Positions 49,113 to 64,000 of a stretch of 64,000 nt of DNA are shown here, piece by piece. Numbering within the stretch: the stretch's first letter is position 1; the number at the start of each line of letters is the position of its first letter. Below the pieces are notes generated by a model. It saw only the letters and a list, made by a program, of their open reading frames with translations, did not search any database and had not been told where the DNA came from. The stretch is from Candidatus Kapaibacteriota bacterium (lineage in GTDB: Bacteria; Bacteroidota; Ignavibacteria; OLB7): positions 10,055 to 74,054 of the forward strand of contig JBMDXA010000018.1 of NCBI GenBank assembly GCA_048594725.1. The letters run 5' to 3'. The translations under genes were made by a program, and so were the position numbers.

Positions 49113-49146
49113 GCCAGAGAACAAACGCTCGCGGCGATAACGATCA

Positions 49147-49186
49147 GGGGAGGATGCCTTGCAGGCATCCTCCCCTTGTTTTTTTC
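49147..49186 (+). terminator. Rho-independent terminator
   Basis: GGGGAGGATGCC-ttgca-GGCATCCTCCCC (12-bp stem) followed by TTGTTTTTTTC. Confidence 0.65.
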
Positions 49187-49213
49187 ATGATAATAGTATG
49201 GAGGAATAATTCC

Positions 49214-49372
49214 ATGCGCAGTGAATTAAGATATCAGGGAGAGAACCGTGGGATACTCAGGGGAGTTGCCATTACATGGCATTGCAATAATGTCCCGGCA
49301 GGTGCATATTCTCTCTCAGCGTTCGACCTCGCCGGCGCTCTGATCTCTTCCATAAATGTTATCAAACAATGA
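49214..49372 (+). pseudogene. Possible orphan fragment of a T9SS cargo C-terminal domain
   Basis: 52-aa ORF MRSELRYQGENRGILRGVAITWHCNNVPAGAYSLSAFDLAGALISSINVIKQ. Its tail resembles the CTD ends of neighbouring cargo proteins (e.g. ...PAGVYMLSIYDRDGDRISATRIPKR). AT-rich, no upstream partner. Confidence 0.3.
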
Positions 49373-49469
49373 GATTTCGTATATATACTGCTGATTCTGG
49401 ATGAGCAGAATGCCATACGGGCCAGCCAGAGAATCATCAAGGGATAATGAGAATAATCAATATTGTTTT

Positions 49470-51113
49470 ATGAAACCTTTGTATCGGTTGCACTCCGGGT
49501 ATCCCCTTGTGCTGTTGACGGTGATCGCACTGATGCAGATGATCCTCCTGTGCGACGACGTGGCCGCACAGGTCGACACCATCCGTCCCAGCCCGAAGGC
49601 AGTACGGCTGCGGGAGATCTGGCGCATTGAGGGACCCAACGAGGGCGGTGGGGATCGGGTGGGACTAGGAGTGGGATCGGTAGGAGATATCAACAACGAC
49701 GGCCTTAGCGATTTTGCTGTGAACTGGGGGAAGCTGGAACAATGGAAGGTATATCTGGGGAAATCTCCTGCGCCATCGACGATTCCCTCCTGGATAGTGG
49801 ACACGGCCGGGGGAAGCAAGCCACTGGCCGGCGACTTCTGGGGCACCGGCAGAAAAGCTGTAACATTTGCAACCGCTGAATCGGATACCAGCGGAGGCCG
49901 CACAAAGTTTTTTCGGAAACTGTTGTTCTTCCGGACTGAAGGAGATACGCTTGCGACGGCTCCAGACCTGATCCTGAATTACCGCCACTCAGATCCACCA
50001 GTTAGGTTCTCTTACACGACCATGCTTGCAGCGGATCTGGATAGTGATGGGGATGACGAGCTTATCCTGTTCAATTATCTGGTGGTTCGGGGAGACTCTA
50101 CGTGGCCTGCCGAGATCTGGATCTATCGTGGCGGACCTGATTTCCAGGTCGGTGCTCCAAGCCTCATTATCCGCGATCCGTTCGAGAATACTATACGTGG
50201 CAATTTCTACGCAGGCATCGGCGACTTCGACGGCGACTCCAGACTCGATATGGTCACCTGGATCGACAACACCGACATCGGACGACTCCGCTTCTGGTGG
50301 GGTGCTCCAGGCGCCCCCTGGAACTGGAACCAGCCCGACCGCATCATCCCCACCGAAGCAGATGCTGCCGGTGGCATCTTCTACCTGCTGGATTGCGACG
50401 GCGACCGCATCCAGGATCTGCTCATCAATTCCCCCACCGGGCCACGCCTGTACCGCTCGGCAACCGGCAAGAGCATGCGCACTCGATCACTCCTCATCGA
50501 TGACTCCGATGCCGATTTCCGCAGCCTTACCTACGGCGGGTTCTTCGCGATGGGACCTCTGAATGACAGCAGCCGGCGATACGATATGATCGGTAAAGTC
50601 GGCTCCAGCCTCATCGCCTTCTCCGGCGGACCGAACGGGCCGGATCTTCAGTACGACGCTACTCACAGCGACAACTTCGGTGTCCCATATGGGTATCCAA
50701 CTCCTTTGTCTGATGTCAACGGCGATGGATGGCCGGATGTGCTGTTCGGCAACTACACCTATTTTTTCCAGAGCGGTGTTGCATTGATCCTGAGCGGCGG
50801 CCCCTACATTCCGCGCGATGGCGTTTCCGGCGTGCAGGATCTCTCGATCAACGGCCAGGAGTCCGCCGTGAGCATCTGGCCGATCCCGATGCGCGATGAG
50901 CTGCACATCGCATGGCGAGGCGATTTGAGGCGTCCTCCGGCGCGCTTCGAGGTACACGATATTACCGGAAAACTGGTTGCGATTGGCGATGCCGATCCGG
51001 CCACCGGAGAAGCCCTCTGGACTTGTTCAACAGCTCCGGCCGGCGTATATATGCTGAGTATATATGATCGAGACGGAGATCGGATCTCGGCGACACGCAT
51101 TCCAAAACGCTAG
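49470..51113 (+). CDS. FG-GAP repeat (integrin-alpha-like beta-propeller) protein with Por/T9SS-type C-terminal domain
   Basis: Signal peptide MKPLYRLHSGYPLVLLTVIALMQMILLCDDVAAQ. Repeated Ca-binding-like motifs DINNDGLSDF, DLDSDGDDELILF, DFDGDSRLDMV, DCDGDRIQDLLI, DVNGDGWPDVLFG. C-terminus ...GVYMLSIYDRDGDRISATRIPKR. Confidence 0.8.
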   Translation: MKPLYRLHSGYPLVLLTVIALMQMILLCDDVAAQVDTIRPSPKAVRLREIWRIEGPNEGGGDRVGLGVGSVGDINNDGLSDFAVNWGKLEQWKVYLGKSPAPSTIPSWIVDTAGGSKPLAGDFWGTGRKAVTFATAESDTSGGRTKFFRKLLFFRTEGDTLATAPDLILNYRHSDPPVRFSYTTMLAADLDSDGDDELILFNYLVVRGDSTWPAEIWIYRGGPDFQVGAPSLIIRDPFENTIRGNFYAGIGDFDGDSRLDMVTWIDNTDIGRLRFWWGAPGAPWNWNQPDRIIPTEADAAGGIFYLLDCDGDRIQDLLINSPTGPRLYRSATGKSMRTRSLLIDDSDADFRSLTYGGFFAMGPLNDSSRRYDMIGKVGSSLIAFSGGPNGPDLQYDATHSDNFGVPYGYPTPLSDVNGDGWPDVLFGNYTYFFQSGVALILSGGPYIPRDGVSGVQDLSINGQESAVSIWPIPMRDELHIAWRGDLRRPPARFEVHDITGKLVAIGDADPATGEALWTCSTAPAGVYMLSIYDRDGDRISATRIPKR

Positions 51114-51164
51114 AGCTTCGCCGGGCGATGTTGCTTCACCCCACTGTACCACACTTCCATAGTT

Positions 51165-51192
51165 GTCTTCTATAGCTACCGGGATCATTCCA
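51165..51192. other. Perfect 11-bp-stem hairpin between T9SS cargo genes
   Basis: GCTACCGGGAT-cattcc-ATCCCGGTAGC, followed by AT-rich sequence without a clean U-tract. Confidence 0.35.
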
Positions 51193-51238
51193 TCCCGGTA
51201 GCAACTTCCTATATGTATATATAATTAATGAGGAATCT

Positions 51239-54200
51239 ATGAGAACCTACCGTAGCAGGAGGCACGACAGAATAATCCTGTTGCTCCTGATGCTGCCACT
51301 GGTGCTACCGCTGGTATTTTGCCCTGCGACAGCACAAACATCTCCAGCACCGATCGTACCGATGCACGGCGTTGGAGATGATGAATTCCTTATCAGTTCC
51401 AATGTAGCTACCTATCCGGATTCCGGAGGAATCGGAAAACTCTGGGAGTTCGCCAGAGCGATGGGAATAAGCACGCTGATGCCTGGAGCAAGCGTCAATC
51501 AGATCGATACACTGGTCAATGACACATTGGAGGCATCGAAGAATCGGCTGATTATCCGTGGCATCGATCCGGTGCAGCTTGCGGGAGCCGGGCGCGAGGT
51601 GCAGTTCTATCCGTTCGATTCGGTGCAGGTACCGTTATATAAATGGCTCTTTACGGATAGAAGCGGCGGTACAGATTTATATAATGCATTGAACGACCCG
51701 GAGAGGTCCCCTGTACGTGAACGAGAGTACAATAGCTCCAATACCATCCCGGGCCAGCTGATCCTAAAAGATATCGTGTACGACTGGCGGCCCTGGCAGA
51801 CCAACCGCTTTCCGGCTTTTGCACATGATTCAACGGCACACAATGCCAGTGATTTTATCGAATGGTACCGCTATCGCTGGCAGACTAATAGTAACAAGCC
51901 TACTTTCAATATTGTCGTAACCGGACATATACTTGATAATGGTTCTGCGGATGAGGAGGATAGTCTACTCAAGATCGAGATAATTTATGAGATCCCCGCA
52001 GGAATGCAATATCAGATCCCTGCTGGAGTGCCTCATCTGGCGGAGACTGATACATCATATCTCTATACTACTGCATATGTCAAAAAAGCATCTCTAGCGC
52101 CCCTCTTCAGCTCTACTCCAAACTATAATGAGTACCGCGACACCTCCATCGCCATAGACTTTGCGCAGTGTGCGGGATGCCCTCCCGGGCCGATGTATGG
52201 CCCCAATGAATCCCGCCGTTTCAACCTGCGTGTGTACTGGACAGGCGCCGAGGCAGTTGCCCTGCGAAGCATCGCACTTCGTGATTCGATCGGGGAGCTT
52301 GTGATGGGCAACCGCCAGCCAAGCGTCGATTTCAGGGCAAGCATGCTGAATGCCGCGCGCCGCGTGGTGTATGGAACGACCACACCGGACAGCACCGCCG
52401 AGCCGCGACAGACGATCCTCCGTATCATGAGCGGCATCGAGCAGCATCCCATGGAGTCATCCATGTTCGCGGCCGTCGAAGATCTGCTCCGTAAAAACCT
52501 GCGAACCGGATTTGCGCCGGGCGACAGCATTTCCTGCCACACCGAGGGGGGAACCAGTACGCCTGGCGTCCCGACCTTCCATCATATCACATATTCCGAT
52601 GCGGTATTTCCGGAGATCGGTCTGGCCACCCCTATCGATACCTCCACCTACTATGCCGGAAACGGCCACTCATACTTACAGGCCACCTACAAGCTGGAGA
52701 ATGTAAGGCTCCCATCGATCGCACAGCACAACGGCAACCGGTTTCAGATCCCTCTGCTGAACCTCACCCGCCAGGCGATCGAGTCAGACTATGAGCCCGC
52801 CCTCCAGATCAACAAATTCGGCCATTACGATCCGCGCTATCCATACGATTTTCCCTATCCCTGGAAAGCCGACGTCATGAACCTGGGACAGGGCGCCGAG
52901 ATCATGCGCGACAAAGGGCGCCGCATGATCTCCACGGTGTTTCCTACCTGCGAGCTTCATCTGCGCGTCAAGAAGTCCGGCGATCCCCTGGATACGATGA
53001 TGACTCACACGCCGGAGGCAGCGGAGCTGCGCGCAATGGTCAATCTGAGCCTCTGTTACGGGGCACGCGGCATCCATTATTACTGGCTCGGCAACTACAC
53101 AAACTATATGTACCGCTCGCCGGTCGATAGCAATCTCTGGATAGGCGTCAACGATTCATGGGGCCCGAACGGTCCCCTCACCAATGATACGCTTCTCGAC
53201 TGGTCTCCGGCATTTCATCTCACTGATAATATTCCAACCCCAACCTACCCGAACGGCACTCCCCGGGTGACGCTCAATAATTTCTATGTAGGCTACCGTG
53301 TCCGCACGCGTGAACTCAGGAAGATCAACTCCTGGCTTGCCGAGATCGGACCGGAGATGGCGAAACTGCGCTGGCGCGATGCCTATAGTATGCATGCGGC
53401 GGTCAGGCATCCGAACATGGACTCTCCGAATATGATGACCCGACCGCTTCCCAACGGGGAAATCGTAACAGGGATACAAACCTTTTCGCCGGATGGTACG
53501 CCCGACACCACCTATGCCACATACGTGGAACTTGGTTTGTTCGAAACCCAGCTCGGCCGCGACACCTCCCTGATCGACAGCTCCGTCACATTGAATCCGT
53601 TGAAGGATGTCAATCATATTTTCGTGGTCAACCGCCGCACGTTCGAACGTCCGGAGGATATCTCCGCGGCAAGCGACAGCGGGCGCACGATGGATTCGCT
53701 GGCAGAGACCCGCACGATTCGTATCGGTTTCAACCTCAGGCACCCGGATACTACCCAGTATAATTTTATACGCGTCAGAGAAGTGGTTCCTGATACCCTG
53801 CCCCTCGCTCTTACGGGAACTAGCCGCCGCTGGTCCCTGGACACGGTCGTTCATGACAATGGGGTTGTTGACCTCACCTTGCGCCCGGGAGGCGGTGCTC
53901 TGCTGCGCATCACCTACTGCCCCCCGGATACCAGCATTGTCAACGGCGACCTTCAGACGAACAGCCAGCGCAAGCTCCTGTACTTCAACGATCGCTATCA
54001 TATGGTCTTCTGGCGCAAGTCGCCCGGGCCTCCCGCCAAGGACACGGTTCTGTACCGCCGCTCCCTACGCACCAGCCAGTGCTGCGGAGCAATCCTCTGG
54101 GAACCGAAGGAGTACGTGGTCAGCCCCAGAAACCCCTCCGACTCTACCTTTGCCAACGACTGCTATCCATCGCTGACCGCTCGCAACATCAATGGAGATA

Positions 54201-56125
54201 CCGTTGTCACCGTGGTCTGGACCAACAGGAATACAGCCGTGCCCGACCCGCGGCGTTATATCTGGATGCGCAACATCCTCGTCAACGAGGGAGAGCCGCA
54301 AGTGAGCGGCAAGACGATGGTCGCACGCTATCGCGGAATCGATCCGCAGCAATGGGGAACGCCGGTCGTCTCCTCGGCTCATGGAGGCGATATCATTGCC
54401 TGGAGCGATAGCTCCGTCGGCATCGTGGCAGCAGTCCGGAAACTGGATGCCGGCGTCAACGGCTGGTCGCGTAGCGGGCAGCTCAGCCGATTGGACTCGG
54501 CCAGCTTGTACGATCCCAGCTACGGCGGCGGCTTCGACATGTTCCCGACGATGCCGGCATTCACCCACGTCCGCTCGCTTGATTCCAATGTCGGCATGGC
54601 ATGGCAACGGATCTTCCCGGTCTCCGAGCCTCCCATCAGCGGCATCATGTACATGCGCCTGGAGCATGCCGACAGCACCATTACCGGGCGCGACTCCCTT
54701 ATCAATCACAATTATACCTGGCTCAGCACCACCAGCGAACGTGCATTCCATCCATCGATGGATATGGCCCAGGGCATCTGGAACAACGTCTATGAAGGGG
54801 TAACCTGGGAAAGCCTGGAGCCGGCAACGAGCAGTCCGGGGGGATGGGACACCTGGTTGAACTTCCGCAGCCTCTGGACCCCCACCAACGAACGGGATGG
54901 ATGGGACCGGATAGATCCGACCTGGTTGTGGGGGCTTGCACAGTTACGCGTGGCCGAGGATCAGACCTGGTCGCTGGCGCATCCTTATCTGCTGCCGAAC
55001 ACCTCATCGACAAACTCTGTGTATGATTCGGATGACTCGAATGAGTCACTTATTTTCTCGGTGGCCTACGTCGATCCGGCGGGAGGAATGCGCCAGGCGA
55101 AAATCAAGTTCTCGGAGGTGAACTTCCAGGACGATGCACCGCAGTATTATGCCTTCGGAGGCAAACACCCGAATGGCTCGGCTTCAACTCTCCGTCAGCC
55201 GAAACGCCATGCGGTGATCTACGAGTCACTGGAGCCGGGGGGAAAGCATCTGCGCAGCACCCGGGAATTCTTTCCGAAGATGCGCCCGCAAGATTATATG
55301 GCTAGCGGGCGGCGAGCAGCACTACTGCTGGACACCTCCGCACACACCGGAATTTCAGTCATGCTGCACGATCCCTGGAAAGCAGATCCATCCGGCGCAG
55401 GGGGAATCAAGATGGCGGTTCGCGGCTTCCAGGACTCGGTGCCGGTGCAGAACCTGACACAGATGTCGGAGTTGCTGCGCACCGGATACTTCCATTCATA
55501 CGACAGCACCGTGCTGGGGCTGGAACTGTCCGGGCACTACTTCGGGGACTATAATCGTGCACCCGACGCCACGCTGACGGCTGTTGCGGAACTTGTCGAC
55601 TCGGCAACACACAATGTTATCTGCCAGTTGGACTCGTTTACGATCTCGGCGGCAACACCGACATATGGAGTACGCCTGGAGCCGACGCTCGATCTTCTGA
55701 GCGGCACATACTACGTGCGGCTGCGGATCGACACCAGCGGTATCACCGGAGAGATAGGTCCCGAAGGAGTACGGTATTCGGTGGCAGAGGTGGCAAGCGA
55801 GGTACGAGCGGAGATGGCAGGCAAGCTGCGCCGCGTGGATCGCTCGGCCGATGCCGGAAGGATTTCGGTCTGGCCGAACCCGGCCAGCGGATCGGCGGAA
55901 ATACAATTCTCGGTGCCAACTGCCGCAACGACATCGGTGACGATCTACGATGCCGGCGGCCGCCAGGTATTCCGTCCGGTGGAGTCGGCACCGATGGAGC
56001 CGGGACGGTACTCCATTCTCACGGATCTCTCCTCCCTTCCGGGCGGAACGTATCTTCTGGAATTGAACTACACAACTGGAACAACGGTTCGCCGCGCCGT
56101 GGGCAAGATGGTAATAACCCGGTAG
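51239..56125 (+). CDS. Very large (1628 aa) secreted protein of unknown function with Por/T9SS-type C-terminal domain
   Basis: Signal peptide MRTYRSRRHDRIILLLLMLPLVLPLVFCPATAQ. No recognised catalytic motif. C-terminus ...GGTYLLELNYTTGTTVRRAVGKMVITR. The 5' roughly 1 kb is markedly lower in GC than the rest. Confidence 0.8.
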   Translation: MRTYRSRRHDRIILLLLMLPLVLPLVFCPATAQTSPAPIVPMHGVGDDEFLISSNVATYPDSGGIGKLWEFARAMGISTLMPGASVNQIDTLVNDTLEASKNRLIIRGIDPVQLAGAGREVQFYPFDSVQVPLYKWLFTDRSGGTDLYNALNDPERSPVREREYNSSNTIPGQLILKDIVYDWRPWQTNRFPAFAHDSTAHNASDFIEWYRYRWQTNSNKPTFNIVVTGHILDNGSADEEDSLLKIEIIYEIPAGMQYQIPAGVPHLAETDTSYLYTTAYVKKASLAPLFSSTPNYNEYRDTSIAIDFAQCAGCPPGPMYGPNESRRFNLRVYWTGAEAVALRSIALRDSIGELVMGNRQPSVDFRASMLNAARRVVYGTTTPDSTAEPRQTILRIMSGIEQHPMESSMFAAVEDLLRKNLRTGFAPGDSISCHTEGGTSTPGVPTFHHITYSDAVFPEIGLATPIDTSTYYAGNGHSYLQATYKLENVRLPSIAQHNGNRFQIPLLNLTRQAIESDYEPALQINKFGHYDPRYPYDFPYPWKADVMNLGQGAEIMRDKGRRMISTVFPTCELHLRVKKSGDPLDTMMTHTPEAAELRAMVNLSLCYGARGIHYYWLGNYTNYMYRSPVDSNLWIGVNDSWGPNGPLTNDTLLDWSPAFHLTDNIPTPTYPNGTPRVTLNNFYVGYRVRTRELRKINSWLAEIGPEMAKLRWRDAYSMHAAVRHPNMDSPNMMTRPLPNGEIVTGIQTFSPDGTPDTTYATYVELGLFETQLGRDTSLIDSSVTLNPLKDVNHIFVVNRRTFERPEDISAASDSGRTMDSLAETRTIRIGFNLRHPDTTQYNFIRVREVVPDTLPLALTGTSRRWSLDTVVHDNGVVDLTLRPGGGALLRITYCPPDTSIVNGDLQTNSQRKLLYFNDRYHMVFWRKSPGPPAKDTVLYRRSLRTSQCCGAILWEPKEYVVSPRNPSDSTFANDCYPSLTARNINGDTVVTVVWTNRNTAVPDPRRYIWMRNILVNEGEPQVSGKTMVARYRGIDPQQWGTPVVSSAHGGDIIAWSDSSVGIVAAVRKLDAGVNGWSRSGQLSRLDSASLYDPSYGGGFDMFPTMPAFTHVRSLDSNVGMAWQRIFPVSEPPISGIMYMRLEHADSTITGRDSLINHNYTWLSTTSERAFHPSMDMAQGIWNNVYEGVTWESLEPATSSPGGWDTWLNFRSLWTPTNERDGWDRIDPTWLWGLAQLRVAEDQTWSLAHPYLLPNTSSTNSVYDSDDSNESLIFSVAYVDPAGGMRQAKIKFSEVNFQDDAPQYYAFGGKHPNGSASTLRQPKRHAVIYESLEPGGKHLRSTREFFPKMRPQDYMASGRRAALLLDTSAHTGISVMLHDPWKADPSGAGGIKMAVRGFQDSVPVQNLTQMSELLRTGYFHSYDSTVLGLELSGHYFGDYNRAPDATLTAVAELVDSATHNVICQLDSFTISAATPTYGVRLEPTLDLLSGTYYVRLRIDTSGITGEIGPEGVRYSVAEVASEVRAEMAGKLRRVDRSADAGRISVWPNPASGSAEIQFSVPTAATTSVTIYDAGGRQVFRPVESAPMEPGRYSILTDLSSLPGGTYLLELNYTTGTTVRRAVGKMVITR

Positions 56126-56153
56126 TGAGTTTTCCCTGAAGGTGAATGCGATC

Positions 56154-56193: not shown

Positions 56194-56232
56194 TCTATTG
56201 ATACTGCCGGTGGCCTCCATGGCGGGCACACG

Positions 56233-57108
56233 CTACACGAAAAGGCCGCTGTAATCGATGAAGCCCTTGTTGATGCTGGCGATCTTCCGCTGCTCGCGGC
56301 GGAACACCCCCACCCCTTCGCGCGAGCCGCCGTCGTTGGTGTTTCCTTCGATCGTCACCAGCTTGCCTCCCACGACCTTCTCCACGATGCCGGCATGACC
56401 TCGCCCGCCGCCGTAATCCATGATGAAGATGTGCCCCGGCTTCACCAGATGAGGATCGCCGGAGGCTTTTGCGGTGCTTATTCTGGGCACCTTCTTCGAT
56501 CCGGCACGGTTCCAGAGATCCAGCACGCCGGCGGTTCGTATCATCGGGTTCTGCAGCTCCAGCTCATCGGCCGCCTCCTGGAAGCAGTAGTAGACGAACG
56601 CCACGCACCACGCATAACTGCCGGAGGCGGGATTGAGCCCCACCGATTTTATGAACTTGTCCACCTGCGGACCACGGTTGGAGCCGGCGGGCCGCTCCAT
56701 CACCCCCACATGCGAACCGGCTATCTTCACCACCTTCACCAGCGGGCTTGCCGGGACCGGCTTCTCATCGGCGGGCACCGACTTCAGCCCGAAAAGCACT
56801 CCCCAGGTGATCGATCCTATCTGCCCGTCCACCTTCAGGGGCTGCCCGTCGGTATCGGGGAAACGCGCCTGGAAGAGCCGTACCGCCCCCTCGGTGTTCT
56901 TTCCGAAATCGCCATCCTCGTCGATCGGTCCCACCCCCGACTCGTTCAACCGGCGCTGCACGGCCATGACGATGGCCTTGTCCTTCTCTCCTTTCTTGAT
57001 AAGCCTGCCGGGATATGGCAGCGCGGGGGCACTGCTGCGGGTAACGATTGCGCCTGCAAGTCGTGGCATACCTGCTCCTTGGTGTACTACAATAGATGAT
57101 GGATGCAT
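56233..57108 (-). CDS. Peptidoglycan hydrolase: N-terminal PG-binding domain (PG_binding_1-like) + C-terminal CHAP domain; no signal peptide
   Basis: PG-binding-like GEKDKAIVMAVQRRLNESGVGPIDEDGDFGKNTEGAVRLFQ. CHAP region with catalytic Cys in GSYAWCVAFVYYCF and His in GHIFIMDYGGGRGHAGIV, then ...IEGNTN. The N-terminus MHPSS.../MPRLAGAIVTRSSAP has no hydrophobic signal sequence. Alternative start at the cat at 57067-57069. Confidence 0.8.
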   Translation of the reverse strand: MHPSSIVVHQGAGMPRLAGAIVTRSSAPALPYPGRLIKKGEKDKAIVMAVQRRLNESGVGPIDEDGDFGKNTEGAVRLFQARFPDTDGQPLKVDGQIGSITWGVLFGLKSVPADEKPVPASPLVKVVKIAGSHVGVMERPAGSNRGPQVDKFIKSVGLNPASGSYAWCVAFVYYCFQEAADELELQNPMIRTAGVLDLWNRAGSKKVPRISTAKASGDPHLVKPGHIFIMDYGGGRGHAGIVEKVVGGKLVTIEGNTNDGGSREGVGVFRREQRKIASINKGFIDYSGLFV

Positions 57109-57267: not shown

Positions 57268-57966
57268 ATGCGCGAAGTGGTTTTGCTTCTGGCTGCGGCC
57301 ACACTGTCATTGCTTCTACCATCCTGCGGCAAGGGGGATGATGCGCCGGAACGGACCCAGGGGGGCGACAGCACAACCGGACGCCCCGCTACCGGCACCG
57401 GAGGCGATCCGGTTCCGTTTGCGCAGATACGTATGCTCCCGTTCGACCTGAAGAACATTCCGCCGCACTATGACTACGACGGCGATGCGATCGGAGGGGC
57501 GCGCTGGAGCGATGCGAACGGAGAAAATGTGGTGATCGTCTCGATGAGTTCCGCACCGGCCGAGGAGGGAACCACACAGAATATATTCGGCTATCAGTAC
57601 GTGGGGACCGGAGCGTCCGTGCGGCGTCTCTGGAAAATTCAGGATGCCGCCGAGAACTGGTGCGACAAGGGGGACGGCCTGGTTTCCGGGATCACCGTAA
57701 AAGATCTGGATGGCAACGGCATCGCCGAAAATGCGTTCGTCTACAACGTGCAGGGCTCCTGCGATGTCTCCCCGCGCCCGTTTAAACTGATGCTCCACAG
57801 CGGCGAGACGAAATATGCACTGCGCGGCACCAACACCGTGCTGGCAAGCCAGGAGCCCGGCACCAAGCCGGATGGAGGAGAAAAGAATTTCGATCCGGCG
57901 TTCGATTCGGCGCCACCGGTTTTCCGGAAGTTCGCCTCGGAGATGTGGGACGAGCATGTGAAATAA
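57268..57966 (+). CDS. Hypothetical lipoprotein (divergent from the CHAP gene)
   Basis: MREVVLLLAAATLSLLLPSCGKGDD lipobox. Gly/Asp-rich mature region. No family recognised. Confidence 0.55.
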   Translation: MREVVLLLAAATLSLLLPSCGKGDDAPERTQGGDSTTGRPATGTGGDPVPFAQIRMLPFDLKNIPPHYDYDGDAIGGARWSDANGENVVIVSMSSAPAEEGTTQNIFGYQYVGTGASVRRLWKIQDAAENWCDKGDGLVSGITVKDLDGNGIAENAFVYNVQGSCDVSPRPFKLMLHSGETKYALRGTNTVLASQEPGTKPDGGEKNFDPAFDSAPPVFRKFASEMWDEHVK

Positions 57967-58065: not shown

Positions 58066-60312
58066 CTATTTCGCCACAACCATCGGACGCGACTCCACGG
58101 TGCCTGCGGTGCTCAGGCGGCAATAATAGACTCCGGCGGGAAGCCCTTCCGCATCAAACCGGATCTGATGCTCACCAGCGGAAAAATCACCCTCGGCGGG
58201 GCGTGCAACTTCACGACCCAGAAGATCATGCAGGGTTATCACCACAGGGCCGGCCACCGGAATTTCGAACGGAATGATCGCCGAGGATGAAACCGGATTC
58301 GGATGACTTTCGCCAAGCCTGCTCATCCCCGCATCCCTCCGGCCGGGCCCCGGCACGCCCATCACATAATAGGCGCTTTTGAACAGGCCATATCCGGAAA
58401 TGGATAGATAGAGATTACCATCCCCTCCCAGCACGGCATGGTGGCCGACATTCATATACCCATCCGGCAGCCCATCCTCCAGAGGAGCCCACGTACTGCC
58501 CGAGCCCAACCACCCATACATCCTGCCGTTACGAGCCACCCCGAATATCTGCTGCCTCCATCGCGGCGTAATGGCGGTTACCGGCCCATCGGCCCAGGGA
58601 ATACGCTCCCAGGTTTTCCCATCATCATGCGAACGTATGATCTCCTCGGCGGTTTCGTATTCAAGGACGTCACCGTTGCGGCGCAACTCGCTGGAATGAG
58701 GCGGCATGCTGTCGCCGGCAATGGCCCAGTGCTCCCCCCCGTCACTGGAAGCGTAGAGCTTCGTATCGCCGGATTTACGTCCGTCCACGATAGGCTCTCC
58801 AACCACCAGCGGTACCGAGTTCGGCCCCGCGAGGATCGATGAGGCCAGAACACCATCCATCACCTGCCGCCAGGTTACCCCCGCATCGGTGGTGCGAAAA
58901 ATCCCGCCGCTGGCATGCCCCGCATCATCGGCCGTCCCGGCAGTAGCAAGCGCTTCATTTCCATTGCCCGCCCATACGGCCTGTACCCCCCAGGGGAGCC
59001 TCGCGGTATTCCAGATCGTGCTCCCATAGGGCTTGTACAGAACCGTCCCCGAATCTCCCTTCTTCTCCGGATCGAGCCCCGCTACGAAACGTCTCGCAAA
59101 GCTGCTGACAACGGATTTCCCGATACCGATATGGCTCCAGGTCCGGCCGCCATCGGTGGAATGAACGAGATCATGACGGGTTTCGGCGCTATCAGGAGAG
59201 GATAGTTCCACTCTCTCCCGCTCGGCGAATATATCCGCCGACTCGGCGGCATGAATAATCCGGGCGATGGTGTCGTTCAGAAGCGTGGTCCGGCCGAGAC
59301 CATGAGAATAGAGCTTCCCGTGCGACGCAACATAGACACCCTGCGGGCCGGGAGCGGAATCGATCTGCACGGAATAATTGCTCAGACCGGAATCGATTTC
59401 CGTCCACGTCAGCCCCCCGTCATCGGAACGGGAGAGAGTCCGATGCCCGGAAAGAAAAAGAGTCCCGTTTCTGCCGGGGAAAATTCGCTCCGCTCCGGCA
59501 ACCGCAAGCTTCATCCAGGTAGCACCGTTATCGGTGGAACGATAGAGTCCGTTCCCTGCGATATTGAACGGCCACGGATCGTTGACGACCATCACAAGAT
59601 CGCTCCCCTCAAGTGCGACAATCCGGGTGGCGAACAGGGTGGCAACGCTGCTCCAGGTGGCCCCGCCATCGGCGGAACGATGAACCGCAGTATTGCCCGC
59701 CACCAGCATCGTCCCATTTTCCGTGACGGCCACGGACCTCACATTATTCCAGGAGGCGGGAAAATTCGTCTCCGGGGCCCAGGTAGCGCCGCTATCGGCG
59801 GAAGCGGATATTCCGCTCCGTGTCACCTTATAGACCAGGCCGTTTTTTCCGCGGACAATGTGAGTGATCTTTGGGGTACTGCCGAGTTCCCACGATTTCC
59901 CGCCATCGGTGGAACGGTCCAGAAGATTCCCGCCTGCCTGCAAGAACACTTCCCCTCCGGCATGCGCTATTGCCGTTATCCGCAGATCAGCGCCGACCAG
60001 GGACCAGCCATAGCCCCCATCAGTGACAGAGAAGAGCAGATCCTGTCTGGAATCTCTGGCGATCATGTTTCCTTTTTCGGAGATCACCAGCTCGTCAATG
60101 CTGTGGGAGCTTATCAGATACCAGCTCTTCCCGGCATCGTCGGAGCGGTAGACGCCCATCCCGGATGAGGCGAAAAGAGTCCCGTCAGAAGCGGACGCAA
60201 CGGAGGTGATCGTTCCGTCCCGGAATTCCTGGACCGGCAGCCAGAACCCCTGGGCCTTGAGAACGCCGCCCCACAGGAGCATAGGAAGCAGGAGAAATGC
60301 AATACGTCTCAT
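58066..60312 (-). CDS. BNR/Asp-box repeat beta-propeller protein with Por/T9SS-type C-terminal domain
   Basis: Signal peptide MRRIAFLLLPMLLWGGVLKAQ. At least 10 S/TxDxGxTW Asp-box motifs (SDDAGKSW, STDGGKSW, SADSGATW, SADGGATW, STDNGATW, SDDGGLTW, STDGGRTW, TTDAGVTW, SSDGGEHW, SHDDGKTW). C-terminus ...GVYYCRLSTAGTVESRPMVVAK. Confidence 0.85.
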   Translation of the reverse strand: MRRIAFLLLPMLLWGGVLKAQGFWLPVQEFRDGTITSVASASDGTLFASSGMGVYRSDDAGKSWYLISSHSIDELVISEKGNMIARDSRQDLLFSVTDGGYGWSLVGADLRITAIAHAGGEVFLQAGGNLLDRSTDGGKSWELGSTPKITHIVRGKNGLVYKVTRSGISASADSGATWAPETNFPASWNNVRSVAVTENGTMLVAGNTAVHRSADGGATWSSVATLFATRIVALEGSDLVMVVNDPWPFNIAGNGLYRSTDNGATWMKLAVAGAERIFPGRNGTLFLSGHRTLSRSDDGGLTWTEIDSGLSNYSVQIDSAPGPQGVYVASHGKLYSHGLGRTTLLNDTIARIIHAAESADIFAERERVELSSPDSAETRHDLVHSTDGGRTWSHIGIGKSVVSSFARRFVAGLDPEKKGDSGTVLYKPYGSTIWNTARLPWGVQAVWAGNGNEALATAGTADDAGHASGGIFRTTDAGVTWRQVMDGVLASSILAGPNSVPLVVGEPIVDGRKSGDTKLYASSDGGEHWAIAGDSMPPHSSELRRNGDVLEYETAEEIIRSHDDGKTWERIPWADGPVTAITPRWRQQIFGVARNGRMYGWLGSGSTWAPLEDGLPDGYMNVGHHAVLGGDGNLYLSISGYGLFKSAYYVMGVPGPGRRDAGMSRLGESHPNPVSSSAIIPFEIPVAGPVVITLHDLLGREVARPAEGDFSAGEHQIRFDAEGLPAGVYYCRLSTAGTVESRPMVVAK

Positions 60313-60364
60313 AATGCTCTCGATGAATAATAGTGCATGGGACTACAAATACATGTGCACCCAT

Positions 60365-63100
60365 CTACCTCCGCACCATAAACCGGCCGATGGCGCTGGA
60401 ACCGTTATCCTGCACCAGCGTGAGGAAATACGCTCCCGGAGGAAATCCACTTACATCCAGCGTAAGCATTTTCACTCCCCCCTTCACTTCGGCGATATAT
60501 TCGCTGGACATCACCTGTCCGGCGTCATCACTGACGATAATTCTTCCCTTCCCCTCATACGGGGTTTCCAGCACCACATTTACCTGCCGGTCCGCCGGGA
60601 CCGGATACGCACCGAGCTGGCGCCCCCTGTCATCCGGCTCCGACTGGACCCCGCTTGGGAAATCCCCCGCCGGATAGGCCGCACCGTAGATATCGGGATT
60701 GCCGTTGCGATAATCCTCCCACACGATAAACAGGGAATCATTTCTGAAGACCGCCGCGGCACTCCTCACCTTGCCGGCCGTGGCACTGATCCGTTGCGGC
60801 CGGGATGCGCTCTCCATACCGGCGCTGATAACGCTCAGCCACAGACCGCTATCGCTCGGCCAGAGGACGTACAGGGAGAAATCAGCAGGGCGCTGGATGA
60901 TGGTGGGATCGAAAGAACTCCCCGATGCATCGATCCGCACGGAGCCGGTGCGATTGCCCTGGAGGTCATACTGCTCGAACTGAACCTGAGCGCTCGTCAG
61001 CGCGCCATTCGCATCGAGCGGATCGGCCGGATAATAACGGAAGAACCGGTTGCCGAGCGCTTTCTGGTACCGGGCGTTCCGGGTTGCCCGGGAAGATTCA
61101 AAAGAAAATACCTGGCCCCCCGCCGGATTGAACGCGACATCGTCATGAATATTCAGATAATCACGTTCCCCTGTGACGATCAGGCTGCCAAGCGAGGGAT
61201 GGACATGGGCGGTATCCCAGAGGATAGTTCCGCCGGGACCGAACATAATCATCCGCCGCTGAGGTTTATCATTATGGCCGGGGGTAAAACTTCCGAGCGT
61301 ATTTCCCGTGACGGGATCATACGTATATCGTGCATCGAACAGAGGCTCATTGACGCTGGTGTACTCATAGCCGATCGACTTCCGATTCCAGCCGCTGTCG
61401 GTAGGTATATACGAGCGGAACGTATACACCGCTGCTCCCCCCATATCATGCTTCCACCCATCAACCCCTGTATAATCAACAATCCCTCCTCCGGAGAAGG
61501 AATTTATCTTGGCGCGATTCTCATGGCTGCGCGTACCATGATTATAGGATGCCACCGAATCGGGAATAAAAACGGGGAGCGGTAGTACAGGGTTATCGGA
61601 GCCGGAAAAGAATTTCGCCTGATGGAACCGGGGGCGGCTTTCCGGATGGCGCCATAGCGCGACGATCTCGCCATTGGCAAGTGCCAGCGCAGGAGTGGTC
61701 TGCGGTAGATTCTGTGCCACGGGTGCAAGAGGCATCCCGAGCATTATCCCCTCGGACCCGCCTGAAAGCCTGACGATAGTGGAATCCGGGCTCACCGTTC
61801 GTGTGACGGCTGGGCGAGTTCTGCGATCCCCCGGAAAGCTCTCCCCTTCTGTCAGATCGAGCGGCAATAGATTTCCATCGCCGTCCAGGACTATCTTATA
61901 CTCACTGGTCGTGGTGGATGTATGATCGTTGCCGGCACGCCCCCTCTGGCTGAACAGGCCATTGAACGTGATGCGATGGCCGTTATCATCGCCGCCGCTA
62001 TAGCGGAAAGCCGAATAGAGGGTGGCGAACGTATAGCTCCCGCCGGTATAATCTGCTCCGTTGGCGACCGTCCAGAGCCGGGCCGGCTCGCTGAAGCTGC
62101 CATCGCCGCGAAGCGTGGTAGCGTACAGGTTTATCAGCTTGCTCAACTGGTCCCGCTCCTCCGCCAGAAAATATATCCGATATCCTCCGGATGAATCGGC
62201 AACGATCGCACCGGCCGATCTCACCCTCCCCTCGAAGGGAGGAACAAGGATGCGGCGGAGGGGACTGGCATCGAAAACGTTCGCATAATATTCGAAATAG
62301 CAGGCGCCACTCTCCTCATATCGCAGCATCGCGAGCGATGTATCGCTCCCCAGATAATGCGGTTGTGCGAATCGATCGGCGGGAATCAGGCGCTCGTCGA
62401 GCCGGCCGTCGGCATGATAGAAGCTGATAGGATCATCCACCACGATACGGATGCCGGGGAGGCCGGCATAGGTACGCTCCGCATCGAAATTCAAGGAATG
62501 AAGCTGCTGGCGTGCTCCCGAGAGAGAGCCGGACGGATCGAGATGCTGCCGGAAATAATTCGGCTGGTCTCCGGCAACCGCCTCGCTCCAGATGACATCG
62601 TATCCCGTACTATCGCGCATCAGCCATACCTGCGCATCCGATTGCAGCTTCGTCTGCGCCGGAAACCGCTCCTCCTCCCCAATGCGGGCTCCGTTCAGAT
62701 CGACCCGCTGCATATACACGCCGGCGTTCCCCGGACGCATATCGTTCCAGAGCACCACGAAGCGATCAGCAAGCGGCAGCACGCTCGCCACACCGGTGGG
62801 ATGGGCCATGGTTCCGGTAAGCATTACCGGCTCCCCCTGCCGGGCCGTCCCTTGAACAATCGCTCCCCAGAGCACCGGCCGCACCCCCGTATCGGCAACA
62901 GGAGCGGTCCCTCCCCATGCAACCAGCGTGGCGTTTCCCGACTGGTCTGCCGATTGAATGGCGGCACCTGCCGGAAAGGGATAGGTCACCGGATCGGCCG
63001 GCGATATGCGGATATCCTCCCGTTGCGCCATGGAAGTACCGTATGGCAGCAAGGCCGCGACCATGAAAAGCGAGAGACGAACAGTATATGCTGTAGCCAT
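60365..63100 (-). CDS. Large secreted PD40/TolB-like beta-propeller repeat protein with Por/T9SS-type C-terminal domain
   Basis: Signal peptide MATAYTVRLSLFMVAALLPYGTSMAQ (cat at 63098-63100). Recurrent W..D.R.GN.DIY motifs (VLWNDMRPGNAGVYM, VIWSEAVAGDQPNYF, IVWEDYRNGNPDIYGA) like PD40 blades. C-terminus ...GAYFLTLVQDNGSSAIGRFMVRR. Confidence 0.75.
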   Translation of the reverse strand: MATAYTVRLSLFMVAALLPYGTSMAQREDIRISPADPVTYPFPAGAAIQSADQSGNATLVAWGGTAPVADTGVRPVLWGAIVQGTARQGEPVMLTGTMAHPTGVASVLPLADRFVVLWNDMRPGNAGVYMQRVDLNGARIGEEERFPAQTKLQSDAQVWLMRDSTGYDVIWSEAVAGDQPNYFRQHLDPSGSLSGARQQLHSLNFDAERTYAGLPGIRIVVDDPISFYHADGRLDERLIPADRFAQPHYLGSDTSLAMLRYEESGACYFEYYANVFDASPLRRILVPPFEGRVRSAGAIVADSSGGYRIYFLAEERDQLSKLINLYATTLRGDGSFSEPARLWTVANGADYTGGSYTFATLYSAFRYSGGDDNGHRITFNGLFSQRGRAGNDHTSTTTSEYKIVLDGDGNLLPLDLTEGESFPGDRRTRPAVTRTVSPDSTIVRLSGGSEGIMLGMPLAPVAQNLPQTTPALALANGEIVALWRHPESRPRFHQAKFFSGSDNPVLPLPVFIPDSVASYNHGTRSHENRAKINSFSGGGIVDYTGVDGWKHDMGGAAVYTFRSYIPTDSGWNRKSIGYEYTSVNEPLFDARYTYDPVTGNTLGSFTPGHNDKPQRRMIMFGPGGTILWDTAHVHPSLGSLIVTGERDYLNIHDDVAFNPAGGQVFSFESSRATRNARYQKALGNRFFRYYPADPLDANGALTSAQVQFEQYDLQGNRTGSVRIDASGSSFDPTIIQRPADFSLYVLWPSDSGLWLSVISAGMESASRPQRISATAGKVRSAAAVFRNDSLFIVWEDYRNGNPDIYGAAYPAGDFPSGVQSEPDDRGRQLGAYPVPADRQVNVVLETPYEGKGRIIVSDDAGQVMSSEYIAEVKGGVKMLTLDVSGFPPGAYFLTLVQDNGSSAIGRFMVRR

Positions 63101-63245
63101 GGTTTTCCGCAGAAGAGAAAAAAATGAGAATGCGAGCCTGCCCCGGCCAGGGAAAATAGAGGCAAAAAATGCCACTGAAAATCGATCACCACCATATCAT
63201 GTAACGCCTCTGCATATCATGTAACGCATCTGCCATGAAAAATTC

Positions 63246-64000
63246 TCACTGCCGTACGATCAGGGGGAATGTTGCGCTGAGACCTCCCGGAACGCTCAGC
63301 ACAAGCAGATAGGGTCCTGCGGCGAGACTCCCCAGATCAATATCGATAGCGTTGTGGCCGGCAACGGCATCCTGCCGGATAGCCGGGAGAGCAGAGGCTC
63401 CCAGCATATCGAAGAGCGCAAGATGCACCCCGGCAGCTTCAGGGATGGAATATTCCACATGCGCCCGCCTGCCGGCAGCACCGTACCGTACGCCGTGCAC
63501 GAGAATACGCGCTCCCCCTGCCGCACGATTCCGGTCACCATTGATGAAAGCCCCCGACGTATTCTCCTTCCATTCCGGCATAGGGAACGGAGTCCCATAA
63601 ATCTCCGGTTCGCCGGTACGATGATCCTCCCAGACCACCATGAGCGTATCATGGCGGAACCGGGCGGCTGGAGAACGCACCACTCCCTTTGTAGCACTGA
63701 TCGCGGTATCGGCCAGCAGGGTGCGGAGCGAGCGCGGTTCGAGGAATATTCCCCGCACCCCTGAATCGCCACCGTAGACTACGGCAATCGTTGAATCCTC
63801 GCGGCTCTGCGCCATCGCCATGCCGGCCGGCTTCCGCCTGAACAGGAGAGGACTACTCCTCAACATCTCGCCACCGGGGGAATACCGTGCAATCTCATAG
63901 CGTAATCCGCTGGTATCGGCGGCGCGGATACGAAAGAATGTTCCATCGCGCAAGGGATGATACAGCGACCAGCTCTTCGGATTATCGAGCTCGAATCGTC
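63246..64000 (-). CDS. Paralogue of the preceding PD40-like T9SS cargo protein (3' part only; gene runs off the window)
   Basis: ...RFRHDTLMVVWEDHRTGEPEIYGTPFP parallels FRNDSLFIVWEDYRNGNPDIYGAAYP of the neighbour. C-terminus ...GPYLLVLSVPGGLSATFPLIVRQ. The reading frame stays open to the window edge. Confidence 0.6.
   Translation of the reverse strand, partial: RFELDNPKSWSLYHPLRDGTFFRIRAADTSGLRYEIARYSPGGEMLRSSPLLFRRKPAGMAMAQSREDSTIAVVYGGDSGVRGIFLEPRSLRTLLADTAISATKGVVRSPAARFRHDTLMVVWEDHRTGEPEIYGTPFPMPEWKENTSGAFINGDRNRAAGGARILVHGVRYGAAGRRAHVEYSIPEAAGVHLALFDMLGASALPAIRQDAVAGHNAIDIDLGSLAAGPYLLVLSVPGGLSATFPLIVRQ

What the first reader, a model, noticed from the sequence alone, without database searches (positions are those of the whole stretch)
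49130..64000. Island of six T9SS-cargo genes with compositional heterogeneity
From 49.1 kb to the window end, 5 of 7 genes encode large beta-propeller or unknown proteins with N-terminal signal peptides and Por/T9SS-type C-termini (FG-GAP, the 1628-aa unknown, BNR/Asp-box, and two PD40-like paralogues). The regions 49130-49470 and 51114 to about 52100 are visibly AT-richer (about 50% GC by eye) than the about 65% background. The rest of the 1628-aa gene has normal GC. This pattern suggests horizontal acquisition or recombination-driven mosaicism in a cell-surface locus. The 1628-aa protein matches no family I recognise and may be a novel surface enzyme or adhesin.
Basis: partly seen in the sequence, partly recalled or inferred. 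Interest (0 to 1): 0.5.

Follow-up and report, generated by a model that had tools for sequence, protein, structure and literature searches.

The report
Inserted secreted-protein gene cassette, variable locus
The last 15 kb of the window is a variable stretch of a Kapaibacterium-like genome where genes for secreted surface proteins have been added to an otherwise conserved housekeeping backbone, including a 7-kb two-gene cassette whose 1628-residue protein is predicted to be an undescribed sugar-cleaving enzyme.

Summary
Five genes, not six, carry T9SS sorting domains. Window GC is 60.7%, not 65%. The dip at 49.13-49.47 kb (44.9% GC) is an ordinary spacer. The dip over the first ~290 codons of the 1628-aa gene is the lowest 900-bp stretch in the window and is a synonymous-site effect (GC3 0.52, against 0.67-0.77 for the rest of the gene and about 0.80 for backbone genes).

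Synteny is decisive. In a close relative (L025; flanking genes 82-96% identical) and in a more distant one (L026/L027), hyp170 and the CHAP hydrolase gene are adjacent. The FG-GAP gene plus the 1628-aa gene (~49192-56232) therefore form a 7-kb insertion. The BNR gene is also absent from L025, and the two right-hand paralogues are only 51-55% identical to their positional counterparts.

The parts
48600..49112 (+). hyp170, the last backbone gene to the left of the insertion
   Evidence: 90.6% aa and 87.9% nt identity to L025, and 68% aa to L026. In both relatives it lies next to the CHAP gene.
49146..49176 (+). Intrinsic terminator hairpin (14-bp stem plus T-run) after hyp170; ancestral spacer sequence retained at the left junction
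   Evidence: I22. Window 49135-49191 aligns to the single L025 spacer with z = 8.1 against shuffles. L026 has a hairpin at the same place.
49192..56232 (+). G1-G2 cassette, about 7.0 kb, present here and absent from the same spacer in L025 and L026/L027. The right boundary is uncertain, between 56140 and 56232.
   Evidence: Nucleotide homology to L025 stops at 49097/49191 and resumes at 56232. GC is 0.565 against a backbone of 0.616. The right-junction sequence 56190-56232 recurs in an independent sample, L028 (39/43 nt).
49192..49469 (+).
   Evidence: GC about 0.45-0.47. No Rfam match.
49470..51113 (+). G1: FG-GAP beta-propeller protein with a signal peptide and a divergent T9SS sorting domain (the ORF opens at ATG 49401; ATG 49470 gives the signal peptide)
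   Evidence: PF13517 and PF01839 pass their cut-offs. The CTD is supported through the family. One to three tandem homologues lie next to long-form G2 homologues in 9 loci, upstream in 8 of them.
51175..51202 (+). GC-rich hairpin in the G1-G2 spacer (GCTACCGGGAT-cattcc-ATCCCGGTAGC)
   Evidence: A stable hairpin is predicted by RNAfold in 7 of the 8 FG-GAP-to-G2 spacers examined; it is not conserved in sequence.
51239..56125 (+). G2: 1628-aa T9SS cargo, made of a signal peptide, a GH42/GH164-like TIM-barrel module with beta domains (aa ~30-900), a seven-bladed beta-propeller plus beta-sandwich (aa ~900-1540) and a sorting domain (aa 1544-1628)
51239..52108 (+).
   Evidence: GC 0.498 and GC3 0.524, with a minimum of 0.38-0.42 at codons 201-280. 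It is not explained by amino-acid usage or by conservation, and most homologues lack it.
55868..56122 (+). T9SS type-A C-terminal sorting domain of G2
   Evidence: PF18962 scores 36.0 bits (cut-off 27) and TIGR04183 scores 31.2 bits (cut-off 23).
56154..56193 (+). Terminator-like hairpin (16-bp arms) between the convergent genes G2 and G3, at the right junction
   Evidence: (I20). Similarity of 56140-56215 to the L025 spacer is only marginal (p about 0.018).
56233..57108 (-). G3: PG_binding_1 + CHAP peptidoglycan hydrolase (backbone gene; database homologues are about 278 aa, which would put the start near 57069)
   Evidence: Pfam. 96% aa identity to L025, 98% to L028 and 73% to L026. The family is widespread (1740 hits).
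57268..57966 (+). G4: lipoprotein of the M949_RS01915 family (backbone gene; the ORF opens at 57103)
   Evidence: NF046077 scores 115.6 bits (cut-off 60). 82% aa identity to L025 and 48% to L026.
58066..60312 (-). G5: BNR/Asp-box double-propeller-like T9SS cargo, absent from L025, where the G4 and G6-homologue stop codons are 18 bp apart
60365..63175 (-). G6: near-orphan T9SS cargo (936-aa ORF; 899 aa in the database)
   Evidence: The CTD passes the NCBIfam cut-off. Only 2 proteins were found among 5.8 billion clusters. It is 51% identical to its positional counterpart P0170 in L025, while flanking genes are 82-96% identical.
63246..64000 (-). G7: C-terminal part of a distant paralogue of G6, with a sorting domain; cut by the window end
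   Evidence: 30% identity to G6 over 151 aa (E 5e-16). CTD HMM E 1.3e-8. 54.6% identical to the 926-aa gene of L025.

Best explanation
The region is a variable (accessory) stretch inside a conserved housekeeping backbone of a Kapaibacteriaceae-like genome (Bacteroidota). The backbone runs DUF2520 - FAA hydrolase - ppk - disulphide isomerase - alanine dehydrogenase - hyp170 - CHAP hydrolase - G4 lipoprotein - (enolase). T9SS cargo genes have been added at two points.

(1) Shown: a ~7-kb two-gene cassette (G1 FG-GAP propeller plus the 1628-aa G2) sits between the hyp170 terminator and the stop codon of the CHAP gene. Relatives at two divergence levels have an empty site there.

(2) Shown: to the right of G4 lie G5 and the fast-diverging tandem paralogues G6/G7.

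Shown: FG-GAP plus G2 is a conserved, multi-copy cassette of this lineage. It sits at other genomic sites in other genomes, and its members exchange C-terminal segments.

Inferred from predicted structure: G2 is exported by Sec and then by the T9SS, which recognises its C-terminal domain. It is displayed on or released from the cell surface, where its N-terminal GH42/GH164-like (beta/alpha)8 module acts on a glycan. The seven-bladed propeller and beta-sandwich would bind or position the substrate. The co-encoded FG-GAP propeller would be a secreted partner.

The lower GC3 of all the cargo genes fits accessory, frequently exchanged genes. The extra-AT-rich first 290 codons of G2 are a copy-specific synonymous-site anomaly. 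I most readily read it as a tract imported by homologous recombination from a lower-GC relative, but this is not shown.
For: Insertion: (hyp170 and CHAP are adjacent in L025 and in L026/L027; flanks are 88-90% nt identical to L025). One search shows the window-type right junction in a second sample. One search shows that none of the 24 G2-family loci carries hyp170, CHAP, ald or ppk, so the cassettes lie elsewhere. Genome GCA_964455525.1 has an empty site (L026) and cassettes at L001 and L002.

Cassette conservation: (FG-GAP homologues at 34-44% identity, adjacent to long-form homologues in L001, L002, L007, L008, L009, L011, L013, L016 and L020; none next to short forms). One search shows FG-GAP triplets upstream of a related T9SS protein in a Melioribacter MAG.

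Family: 28 proteins, all from Kapaibacterium/Chlorobiota-type MAGs; 243 cluster representatives.

Mosaicism. P0002 is 78% identical to G2 over aa 38-800 but 33.6% over aa 1058-1490, where P0002 is 48.8% identical to P0014. Bootstrap support for G2+P0002 as sisters is 100% in the N-half and 0% for aa 1201-1540.

Composition.
Against: No catalytic activity or substrate is known, and the canonical clan GH-A Asn-Glu motif is not evident. I had no model coordinates, so catalytic residues could not be placed. The most conserved part of the N-half is the beta-rich region aa 700-870 (W712, R735, D756, E764, N798-R799-R800, R825), not the barrel. The functional site may therefore lie elsewhere.

No mobility gene, tRNA, target-site duplication or terminal repeat marks the insertion, so the mechanism of insertion is unknown. 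The similarity of the right junction to the ancestral spacer is marginal (p 0.018).

Lower GC3 is also seen in cargo genes of other genomes, so it may reflect weak codon selection rather than foreign origin. No donor is identified. T9SS machinery genes are not in the window. NJ trees on about 30-40% identical sequences are crude.
Confidence: 0.6

Rival explanations
1. The cassette is ancestral at this site and was deleted in the relatives, for example by recombination between the two terminator-like modules that bracket it.
For: Both junctions carry a hairpin module, and the right one resembles the ancestral spacer weakly (p about 0.018). A deletion between such repeats would leave the single spacer seen in L025. 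L028 shows that the window-type junction exists in another strain.
Against: Two independent levels of relatives (L025 at about 90% nt, and L026/L027 at about 73% CHAP aa identity) both have the empty site, which would need two deletions. Left and right modules are not significantly similar to each other (p about 0.1). The cassette is compositionally unlike the backbone. Cassettes sit at other sites in other genomes.
Confidence: 0.12
2. The compositional heterogeneity has nothing to do with transfer. Large secreted, weakly expressed, fast-evolving genes simply have weaker selection for GC-ending codons, and the dips are spacers plus noise.
For: Cargo genes in other genomes also have lower GC3 than their backbone (L001 cassette 0.57-0.60 against 0.685; L025 G6-like genes 0.62-0.70 against 0.80). 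Patch 1 is an ordinary spacer. GC3 is also patchy within G1 and G6.
Against: The 1331-aa surface protein in the same window has GC3 of 0.78. The 5' tract of G2 is a contiguous block of about 1 kb at GC3 0.52, with no link to conservation (rho 0.02) or to amino-acid usage. Most homologues have no such dip. The presence/absence polymorphism stands regardless.
Confidence: 0.3
3. G2 is not an enzyme but a surface adhesin or binding protein that has kept a degenerate TIM-barrel scaffold.
For: No canonical NEP motif is visible. The strongest conservation lies outside the barrel. The C-half is a generic propeller of the kind found in lectins and integrins. The C-terminal segment is hypervariable and swapped, as in surface recognition proteins.
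Confidence: 0.3
4. The arrangement is a metagenome-assembly chimera joining a multi-copy cassette to an unrelated backbone.
For: The source is a MAG contig (82,813 bp, NCBI). The cassette family is multi-copy within genomes, a known cause of mis-joins.
Against: Both junctions fall within one 116-bp ancestral spacer, with backbone on both sides. A second sample (L028) independently assembles the right junction.
Confidence: 0.04

Closest known systems
GH42 beta-galactosidases and GH164 beta-mannosidase (clan GH-A; e.g. PDB 3tts, 1kwk, 6t5o; PMC7105311)
   Different: Sequence identity is 9-13%, and there is no Pfam or PDB sequence match even at E <= 10. The Asn-Glu acid/base motif is not evident. 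The insertion is an all-beta domain of about 200 residues rather than a helical subdomain. The protein continues into a propeller and a T9SS sorting domain. It is always paired with an FG-GAP gene. Trimer formation is unknown.
T9SS type-A cargo proteins of Bacteroidota (TIGR04183 / PF18962 C-terminal domain)
   Same: G2, G5 and G6 (above cut-off) and G1 and G7 (by family evidence) combine an N-terminal signal peptide with a C-terminal sorting domain of about 80 residues.
   Different: The passenger domains of G2 and of G6/G7 belong to no described family. G1's sorting domain is unusually divergent.
Flexible genomic islands / hypervariable surface-protein loci in otherwise syntenic bacterial genomes
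   Same: There is a conserved backbone with presence/absence of surface-protein genes between relatives of about 90% nucleotide identity. Composition is lower in GC and deviant. Positional orthologues are hyperdivergent (G6/G7 at 51-55% against flanks at 82-96%).
   Different: No integrase, transposase, tRNA or flanking repeats were found. The inserted unit is a recurrent two-gene cassette with its own upstream region and terminator.
FG-GAP / VCBS seven-bladed propeller proteins (integrin-alpha-like; PF13517, PF01839)
   Same: G1 has FG-GAP repeats with DxDxDG calcium-type loops.
   Different: No function is known for this subfamily. It is linked to the G2 family by gene order only. Its propeller is not detectably homologous to the G2 propeller; hhalign aligns only the sorting domains.

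Membership tests
T9SS type-A cargo | C-terminal sorting domain matching TIGR04183 / PF18962 above the curated cut-off | tested here: met
   G2 scores 31.2/36.0 bits, G5 28.0 (TIGR04183) and G6 26.9 (TIGR04183; cut-off 23). G1 is sub-threshold (18.8 against 27), but 10 of 14 family members hit and hhalign to the G2 CTD gives 92%. G7 is supported by a custom HMM (E 1.3e-8) and by alignment to G6.
T9SS type-A cargo | N-terminal Sec signal peptide | tested here: inconclusive
   Read by eye from the translations: a basic n-region, a hydrophobic core and an A-x-A/Q site in G1 (from M24), G2, G5 and G6 (from M26). No signal-peptide predictor was available.
T9SS type-A cargo | The host encodes the T9SS machinery (PorK/L/M/N, SprA/Sov, PorU/V) | not testable with these tools
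   No such gene lies in the 64-kb window, and the rest of the genome is not available. The lineage (Bacteroidota) generally has it, which is my own knowledge.
Clan GH-A glycoside hydrolases (GH42/GH164-like) | (beta/alpha)8 barrel catalytic domain | tested here: met
Clan GH-A glycoside hydrolases (GH42/GH164-like) | Acid/base Glu at the end of strand 4 (usually Asn-Glu) and nucleophile Glu at the end of strand 7 | tested here: inconclusive
   No coordinates or residue-level structural alignment were returned. The conserved acidic residues after predicted strands are D127 (93%) and E401 (96%). No conserved Asn-Glu is present. E596 (86%) lies in a helix.
GH42 (PF02449) / GH164 as sequence families | Significant match to the family's sequence profile | tested here: not met
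   Pfam and NCBIfam on the whole protein and Pfam on five segments at E <= 10 gave no GH family. A profile search of PDB sequences at E <= 10 gave only noise.
Horizontally acquired genomic island (classical) | Presence/absence against close relatives at a conserved site | tested here: met
   G1-G2 and G5 are absent at the syntenic site in L025, and G1-G2 in L026/L027.
Horizontally acquired genomic island (classical) | Mobility signatures: integrase or transposase, tRNA target, flanking direct repeats | tested here: not met
   The only tRNA is at 30873. No mobility domain appears in any gene of the region. No significant flanking repeats were found.
Horizontally acquired genomic island (classical) | Composition deviating from the host genome | tested here: met
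   Cassette GC is 0.565 against 0.616. GC3 is 0.63-0.67 against 0.72-0.86. The tetranucleotide correlation is lower. Cargo genes in other genomes show the same tendency, so this is weak evidence of foreign origin.

The most novel reading that the evidence does not exclude
FG-GAP plus G2 is a self-contained, multi-copy surface-enzyme cassette of Kapaibacteria. It relocates into terminator-proximal intergenic sites without any recognisable mobility gene and diversifies by swapping C-terminal propeller/sandwich segments between copies. Its N-terminal module would found a new glycoside hydrolase family whose catalytic apparatus departs from the canonical clan GH-A Asn-Glu/Glu pair.
Probability: 0.2. 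Interest if true: 0.6.

Novelty: new variant of a known kind. Interest (0 to 1): 0.4.

Why it matters
Kapaibacteria are common in activated sludge, bioreactors and sediments but remain uncultured, and almost nothing is known about what they secrete. A lineage-specific, repeatedly duplicated and reshuffled pair of T9SS-secreted proteins, one with a GH42/GH164-like barrel invisible to sequence profiles, is a concrete candidate for a new carbohydrate-active enzyme family. It is also a marker of strain-level variation in how these organisms deal with polymers or surfaces. The locus gives a clean natural example of cargo genes being slotted into a housekeeping backbone, with an empty site and a filled site in relatives of about 90% identity. 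The interest is moderate. Variable surface-protein loci and unannotated TIM-barrel hydrolases are both familiar, and no activity has been shown.

Tried and rejected
- Exact-sequence contig look-ups for P0001 and P0002 (the closest G2 homologue) found nothing on record. I therefore could not test whether the orthologue shares the AT-rich 5' tract.
- A scan of JGI metagenomes with G2 found no relative.
- The afdb50 fold library was unavailable. Protein comparison on A5/A4 failed, so I ran hhalign locally instead.
- Is the G2 propeller a fused FG-GAP gene? Rejected: only the sorting domains align.
- Is the 5' AT-richness a family-wide property? Rejected: GC3 of the segment aligned to aa 38-290 is about equal to the rest in most of 22 homologous genes, with mild dips only in L002, L009 and L015.
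- Is it caused by amino-acid composition or relaxed constraint? Rejected: FYMINK content is 25.5% against 23.7%, and Spearman rho between conservation and GC3 is 0.02.
- Is it an RNA element? No Rfam match at E <= 0.1.
- Is the cassette bracketed by a duplicated terminator module? Only marginal: right junction against the ancestral spacer gives p about 0.018, and left against right p about 0.1. I do not rely on it.
- Transposon-like terminal repeats were not found.
- A sub-profile search of PDB sequences was judged pointless after the whole-profile search gave only noise.
- A literature search for Kapabacteria plus type IX secretion gave one unrelated paper.

Full report
**1. What is in the region**

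ORF listing and translation give seven genes from 49.1 kb to the window end:

- G1, 49401/49470-51113 (+)
- G2, 51239-56125 (+), 1628 aa
- G3, 56233-57108 (-)
- G4, 57103/57268-57966 (+)
- G5, 58066-60312 (-)
- G6, 60365-63175 (-)
- G7, 63246->64000 (-), truncated by the window end

Pfam and NCBIfam assign them as follows:

- G1 is an FG-GAP protein.
- G3 is PG_binding_1 + CHAP.
- G4 belongs to lipoprotein family NF046077.
- G5 is a BNR/Asp-box protein.
- G2 and G6 match nothing apart from the T9SS type-A sorting domain.

The sorting domain passes the curated cut-off in G2, G5 and G6. G7 has one by a custom HMM (E 1.3e-8) and by its alignment to G6. G1's is sub-threshold, but 10 of 14 G1 homologues hit PF18962, and hhalign aligns its tail to the G2 sorting domain.

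'PD40-like' for G6/G7 is not confirmed.

The first 49 kb is housekeeping: ABC transporters, SSB, MiaA, CdaA, PhoH, MacB/HlyD/TolC, RecQ, ppk and alanine dehydrogenase. It holds two further sorting-domain proteins, an S8 subtilase and a 1331-aa IgGFc-binding-like protein. The clustering at the right end is therefore real (Fisher p about 1.6e-4 with an approximate gene count).

**2. Composition**

Window GC is 0.607 and the backbone is 0.616, not about 0.65.

Patch 1 (49130-49470) has GC 0.449. It is non-coding. It holds the strong terminator of the upstream gene (49146-49176) and the region upstream of G1. Other spacers in the window run near 0.50, so this patch is unremarkable.

Patch 2 (51114-52100) has GC 0.490. 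It is the 125-bp G1-G2 spacer plus the first ~290 codons of G2.

- It is the lowest 900-bp stretch of the window (0.487; mean 0.607, sd 0.033).
- It is a synonymous-site effect. GC3 is 0.524, falling to 0.38-0.42 at codons 201-280, against 0.67-0.77 for the rest of the gene.
- Amino-acid usage barely differs, and GC3 does not track protein conservation (rho 0.02).
- Most homologous genes show no 5' dip, so it is a property of this copy.

All five cargo genes have GC3 of 0.63-0.67, against 0.72-0.86 for 24 backbone genes (p 6e-4). Tetranucleotide usage of 50-64 kb also deviates from the backbone.

**3. Synteny: the decisive result**

G6 has only one homologue in the protein collection (P0170, 52%). 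Its contig, L025 (12.8 kb), comes from a close relative:

| Gene | Identity to L025 |
|---|---|
| hyp170 | 90.6% aa |
| G3 (CHAP) | 96.2% aa |
| G4 | 81.7% aa |
| Flanking DNA | 88-90% nt |

In L025, hyp170 and the CHAP gene are convergent neighbours, separated by a 116-bp spacer with a single terminator hairpin. G1 and G2 are absent.

The left junction of the window (to 49191) aligns to that spacer with z = 8.1. Homology resumes at the CHAP stop codon at 56233.

A more distant genome (L026 = GCA_964455525.1, with L027 identical in the gene used) keeps the whole backbone: DUF2520 - FAA hydrolase - ppk - disulphide isomerase - Ald - hyp - CHAP - G4 - enolase. Here too hyp and CHAP are adjacent. 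Two outgroup levels with an empty site make insertion in the window's lineage the parsimonious reading.

A 1.9-kb contig from a third sample (L028, 91.4% nt) ends 43 nt past the CHAP stop. Those 43 nt match the window's right junction (39/43) and not the L025 spacer. The filled state therefore exists elsewhere, which makes a mis-assembly unlikely.

G5 is likewise absent from L025, where the G4 and P0170 stop codons are 18 bp apart.

G6 and G7 are only 51% and 54.6% identical to their positional counterparts in L025. L025 has three such tandem genes before enolase. L026 retains only a 164-aa ORF with a 76-residue, 50%-identical remnant of G6.

No tRNA, mobility gene or significant flanking repeat marks the G1-G2 insertion.

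**4. The cassette and its family**

G2 has 28 relatives in the word-indexed search, all from Kapaibacterium/'Chlorobi'-type MAGs. An exhaustive profile search finds 243 cluster representatives. Two forms exist:

- **Long forms** (~1600-1750 aa) carry the sorting domain.
- **Short forms** (~870-1030 aa) cover only aa ~38-893. They end in unrelated Arg-rich tails, and the closest clade of them lies in conserved synteny.

Several genomes hold three or four copies.

G1 homologues (34-44% identity) occur in one to three tandem copies. They lie immediately upstream of long-form genes in eight loci and downstream in one. They are never next to short forms. In 7 of the 8 FG-GAP-to-G2 spacers examined, RNAfold predicts a stable GC-rich hairpin that is not conserved in sequence.

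None of these loci carries the window's backbone genes. Genome GCA_964455525.1 has the empty site (L026) while holding cassettes elsewhere (L001, L002). The cassette's location is therefore not conserved.

A Melioribacter MAG has three tandem FG-GAP sorting-domain genes upstream of a beta-helix T9SS protein. That protein shares a module with G2 aa 568-891.

**5. Mosaicism**

Identity between G2 and its closest relative P0002 changes sharply along the protein:

| Segment (aa) | G2 vs P0002 identity |
|---|---|
| 1-800 | 58-93%, 78% overall |
| 816-1057 | 45-52% |
| 1058-1490 | 25-42% |
| Sorting domain | 57-72% |

In aa 1058-1490, P0002 is 48.8% identical to P0014 and 43.6% to P0015, but only 33.6% to G2. 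In aa 38-800, P0002 is 78% identical to G2 and only 33% to those two.

Bootstrapped NJ trees recover G2+P0002 as sisters in 100% of replicates for aa 38-700 and in 0% for aa 1201-1540.

Rate differences cannot explain a segment that is closer to another paralogue lineage, so C-terminal segments have been exchanged between copies.

The N-half of G2 and P0002 also groups with the short-form clade (50-65% identity) rather than with other long forms (25-38%).

**6. What G2 probably is**

Sequence methods find nothing. Pfam on the whole protein and on five segments at E <= 10 gave no family, and neither did a profile search of PDB sequences.

The secondary-structure map shows four beta-alpha units. 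A ~200-residue all-beta insertion follows, and then the rest of the barrel and further beta domains. GH42 and GH164 carry a subdomain at the same topological place, after strand 4 (PMC7105311).

The C-half model (pLDDT 76) is a generic seven-bladed propeller plus beta-sandwich(es) plus the sorting domain.

In a 90-sequence alignment, conserved acidic residues after predicted strands are D127 (93%) and E401 (96%). There is no conserved Asn-Glu. The densest conservation is at aa 700-870, covering W712, Y716, R735, D756, E764, N798-R799-R800 and R825.

I could not obtain coordinates, so the catalytic assignment is open. The protein works like, and may be, a distant clan GH-A enzyme, but it is not a member of GH42 or GH164 as sequence families.

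**7. Mechanism proposed**

- **Shown:** the gene pair is an inserted accessory unit, and the family is multi-copy, mobile in location and recombining.
- **Inferred:**
  - Sec export, followed by T9SS recognition of the sorting domain and surface display or release.
  - Glycan cleavage or remodelling by the barrel.
  - Substrate binding by the propeller/sandwich.
  - G1 acts as a secreted partner.
- **Unexplained:** the ~1-kb AT-rich tract at the 5' end of G2.
  - Its 3' edge coincides with a jump of G2-P0002 identity from about 73% to 85-93%, and lower-GC relatives exist (L007, 51% GC).
  - A recombinational import is therefore plausible, but it cannot be tested without the orthologue's DNA.

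**8. Verdict**

The finding is a familiar kind of variable surface-protein locus. It contains an undescribed, lineage-restricted cassette and a candidate new glycoside hydrolase family, and its interest is moderate.

Noticed in passing
window 36313-40308 (-) and 40500-41090 (-): A 1331-aa IgGFc_binding / Ig-like protein with a T9SS sorting domain (custom HMM E 2.4e-13), together with the neighbouring 196-aa ORF, has no counterpart at the syntenic site of L026/L027. There DUF2520 and FAA hydrolase are nearly adjacent. This looks like a third cargo-gene insertion in the same backbone. Its GC3 is normal (0.78).
   Followed up: partly
window 22985-25288 (+): An S8 subtilase of 767 aa also carries a T9SS sorting domain (custom HMM E 3e-14 at aa 687-765). 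My Pfam run, cut at E 1e-4, did not list the domain.
   Followed up: no
L026 8626-9120 (and L027 1473-1967): A 164-aa ORF between the G4 homologue and enolase is 50% identical to G6 aa 674-749. It appears to be a remnant of a G6-like gene, so a G6-type gene at this site may be old, and decayed in that lineage.
   Followed up: partly
L025 1617-10250: The close relative has three tandem G6-like genes (944, 926 and 921 aa). They are only 27-55% identical to G6/G7, while the adjacent backbone genes are 82-96% identical. The G6 family has just two members among 5.8 billion protein clusters. These are extremely fast-evolving or frequently replaced surface proteins.
   Followed up: partly
L003, L004, L005, L018, L012 (short-form G2 homologues): Short forms stop just after the '...LLEITY' strand and run into unrelated Arg-rich tails. 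Yet they are conserved (about 50-90% among themselves), lie in conserved synteny, and have signal peptides but no sorting domain. They are probably a truncated, non-T9SS derivative of the N-terminal enzyme module.
   Followed up: partly
window 51175-51202; spacers in L001, L002, L007, L008, L009, L013, L016: RNAfold predicts a stable GC-rich hairpin in 7 of the 8 spacers between the FG-GAP gene(s) and the G2-type gene. Its sequence is not conserved. It could be an internal attenuator or a processing or stabilising structure that sets the ratio of the two products.
   Followed up: partly
L023 1877-10688 (Melioribacter MAG): Three tandem FG-GAP sorting-domain genes precede a beta-helix + TPR + sorting-domain protein that shares a ~200-residue module with G2 aa 568-891. 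The pairing of FG-GAP genes with a large T9SS protein therefore extends beyond Kapaibacteria.
   Followed up: partly
window 52083-52054 (-): The best sigma-70-like match of the whole 15-kb region (TTGACA-18-TATGAT, 11 of 12) is antisense, inside G2 at the 3' edge of the AT-rich tract. It may be chance in AT-rich DNA, and Bacteroidota promoters differ from this consensus.
   Followed up: no
window 56233-57108 (-) G3: The PG_binding_1 + CHAP protein has no obvious signal peptide. It is about 60% identical to proteins from unrelated phyla (Acidobacteriota, Herbaspirillum, Larkinella; 1740 hits at E <= 1e-40). That is unusually high conservation for a cell-wall hydrolase.
   Followed up: no
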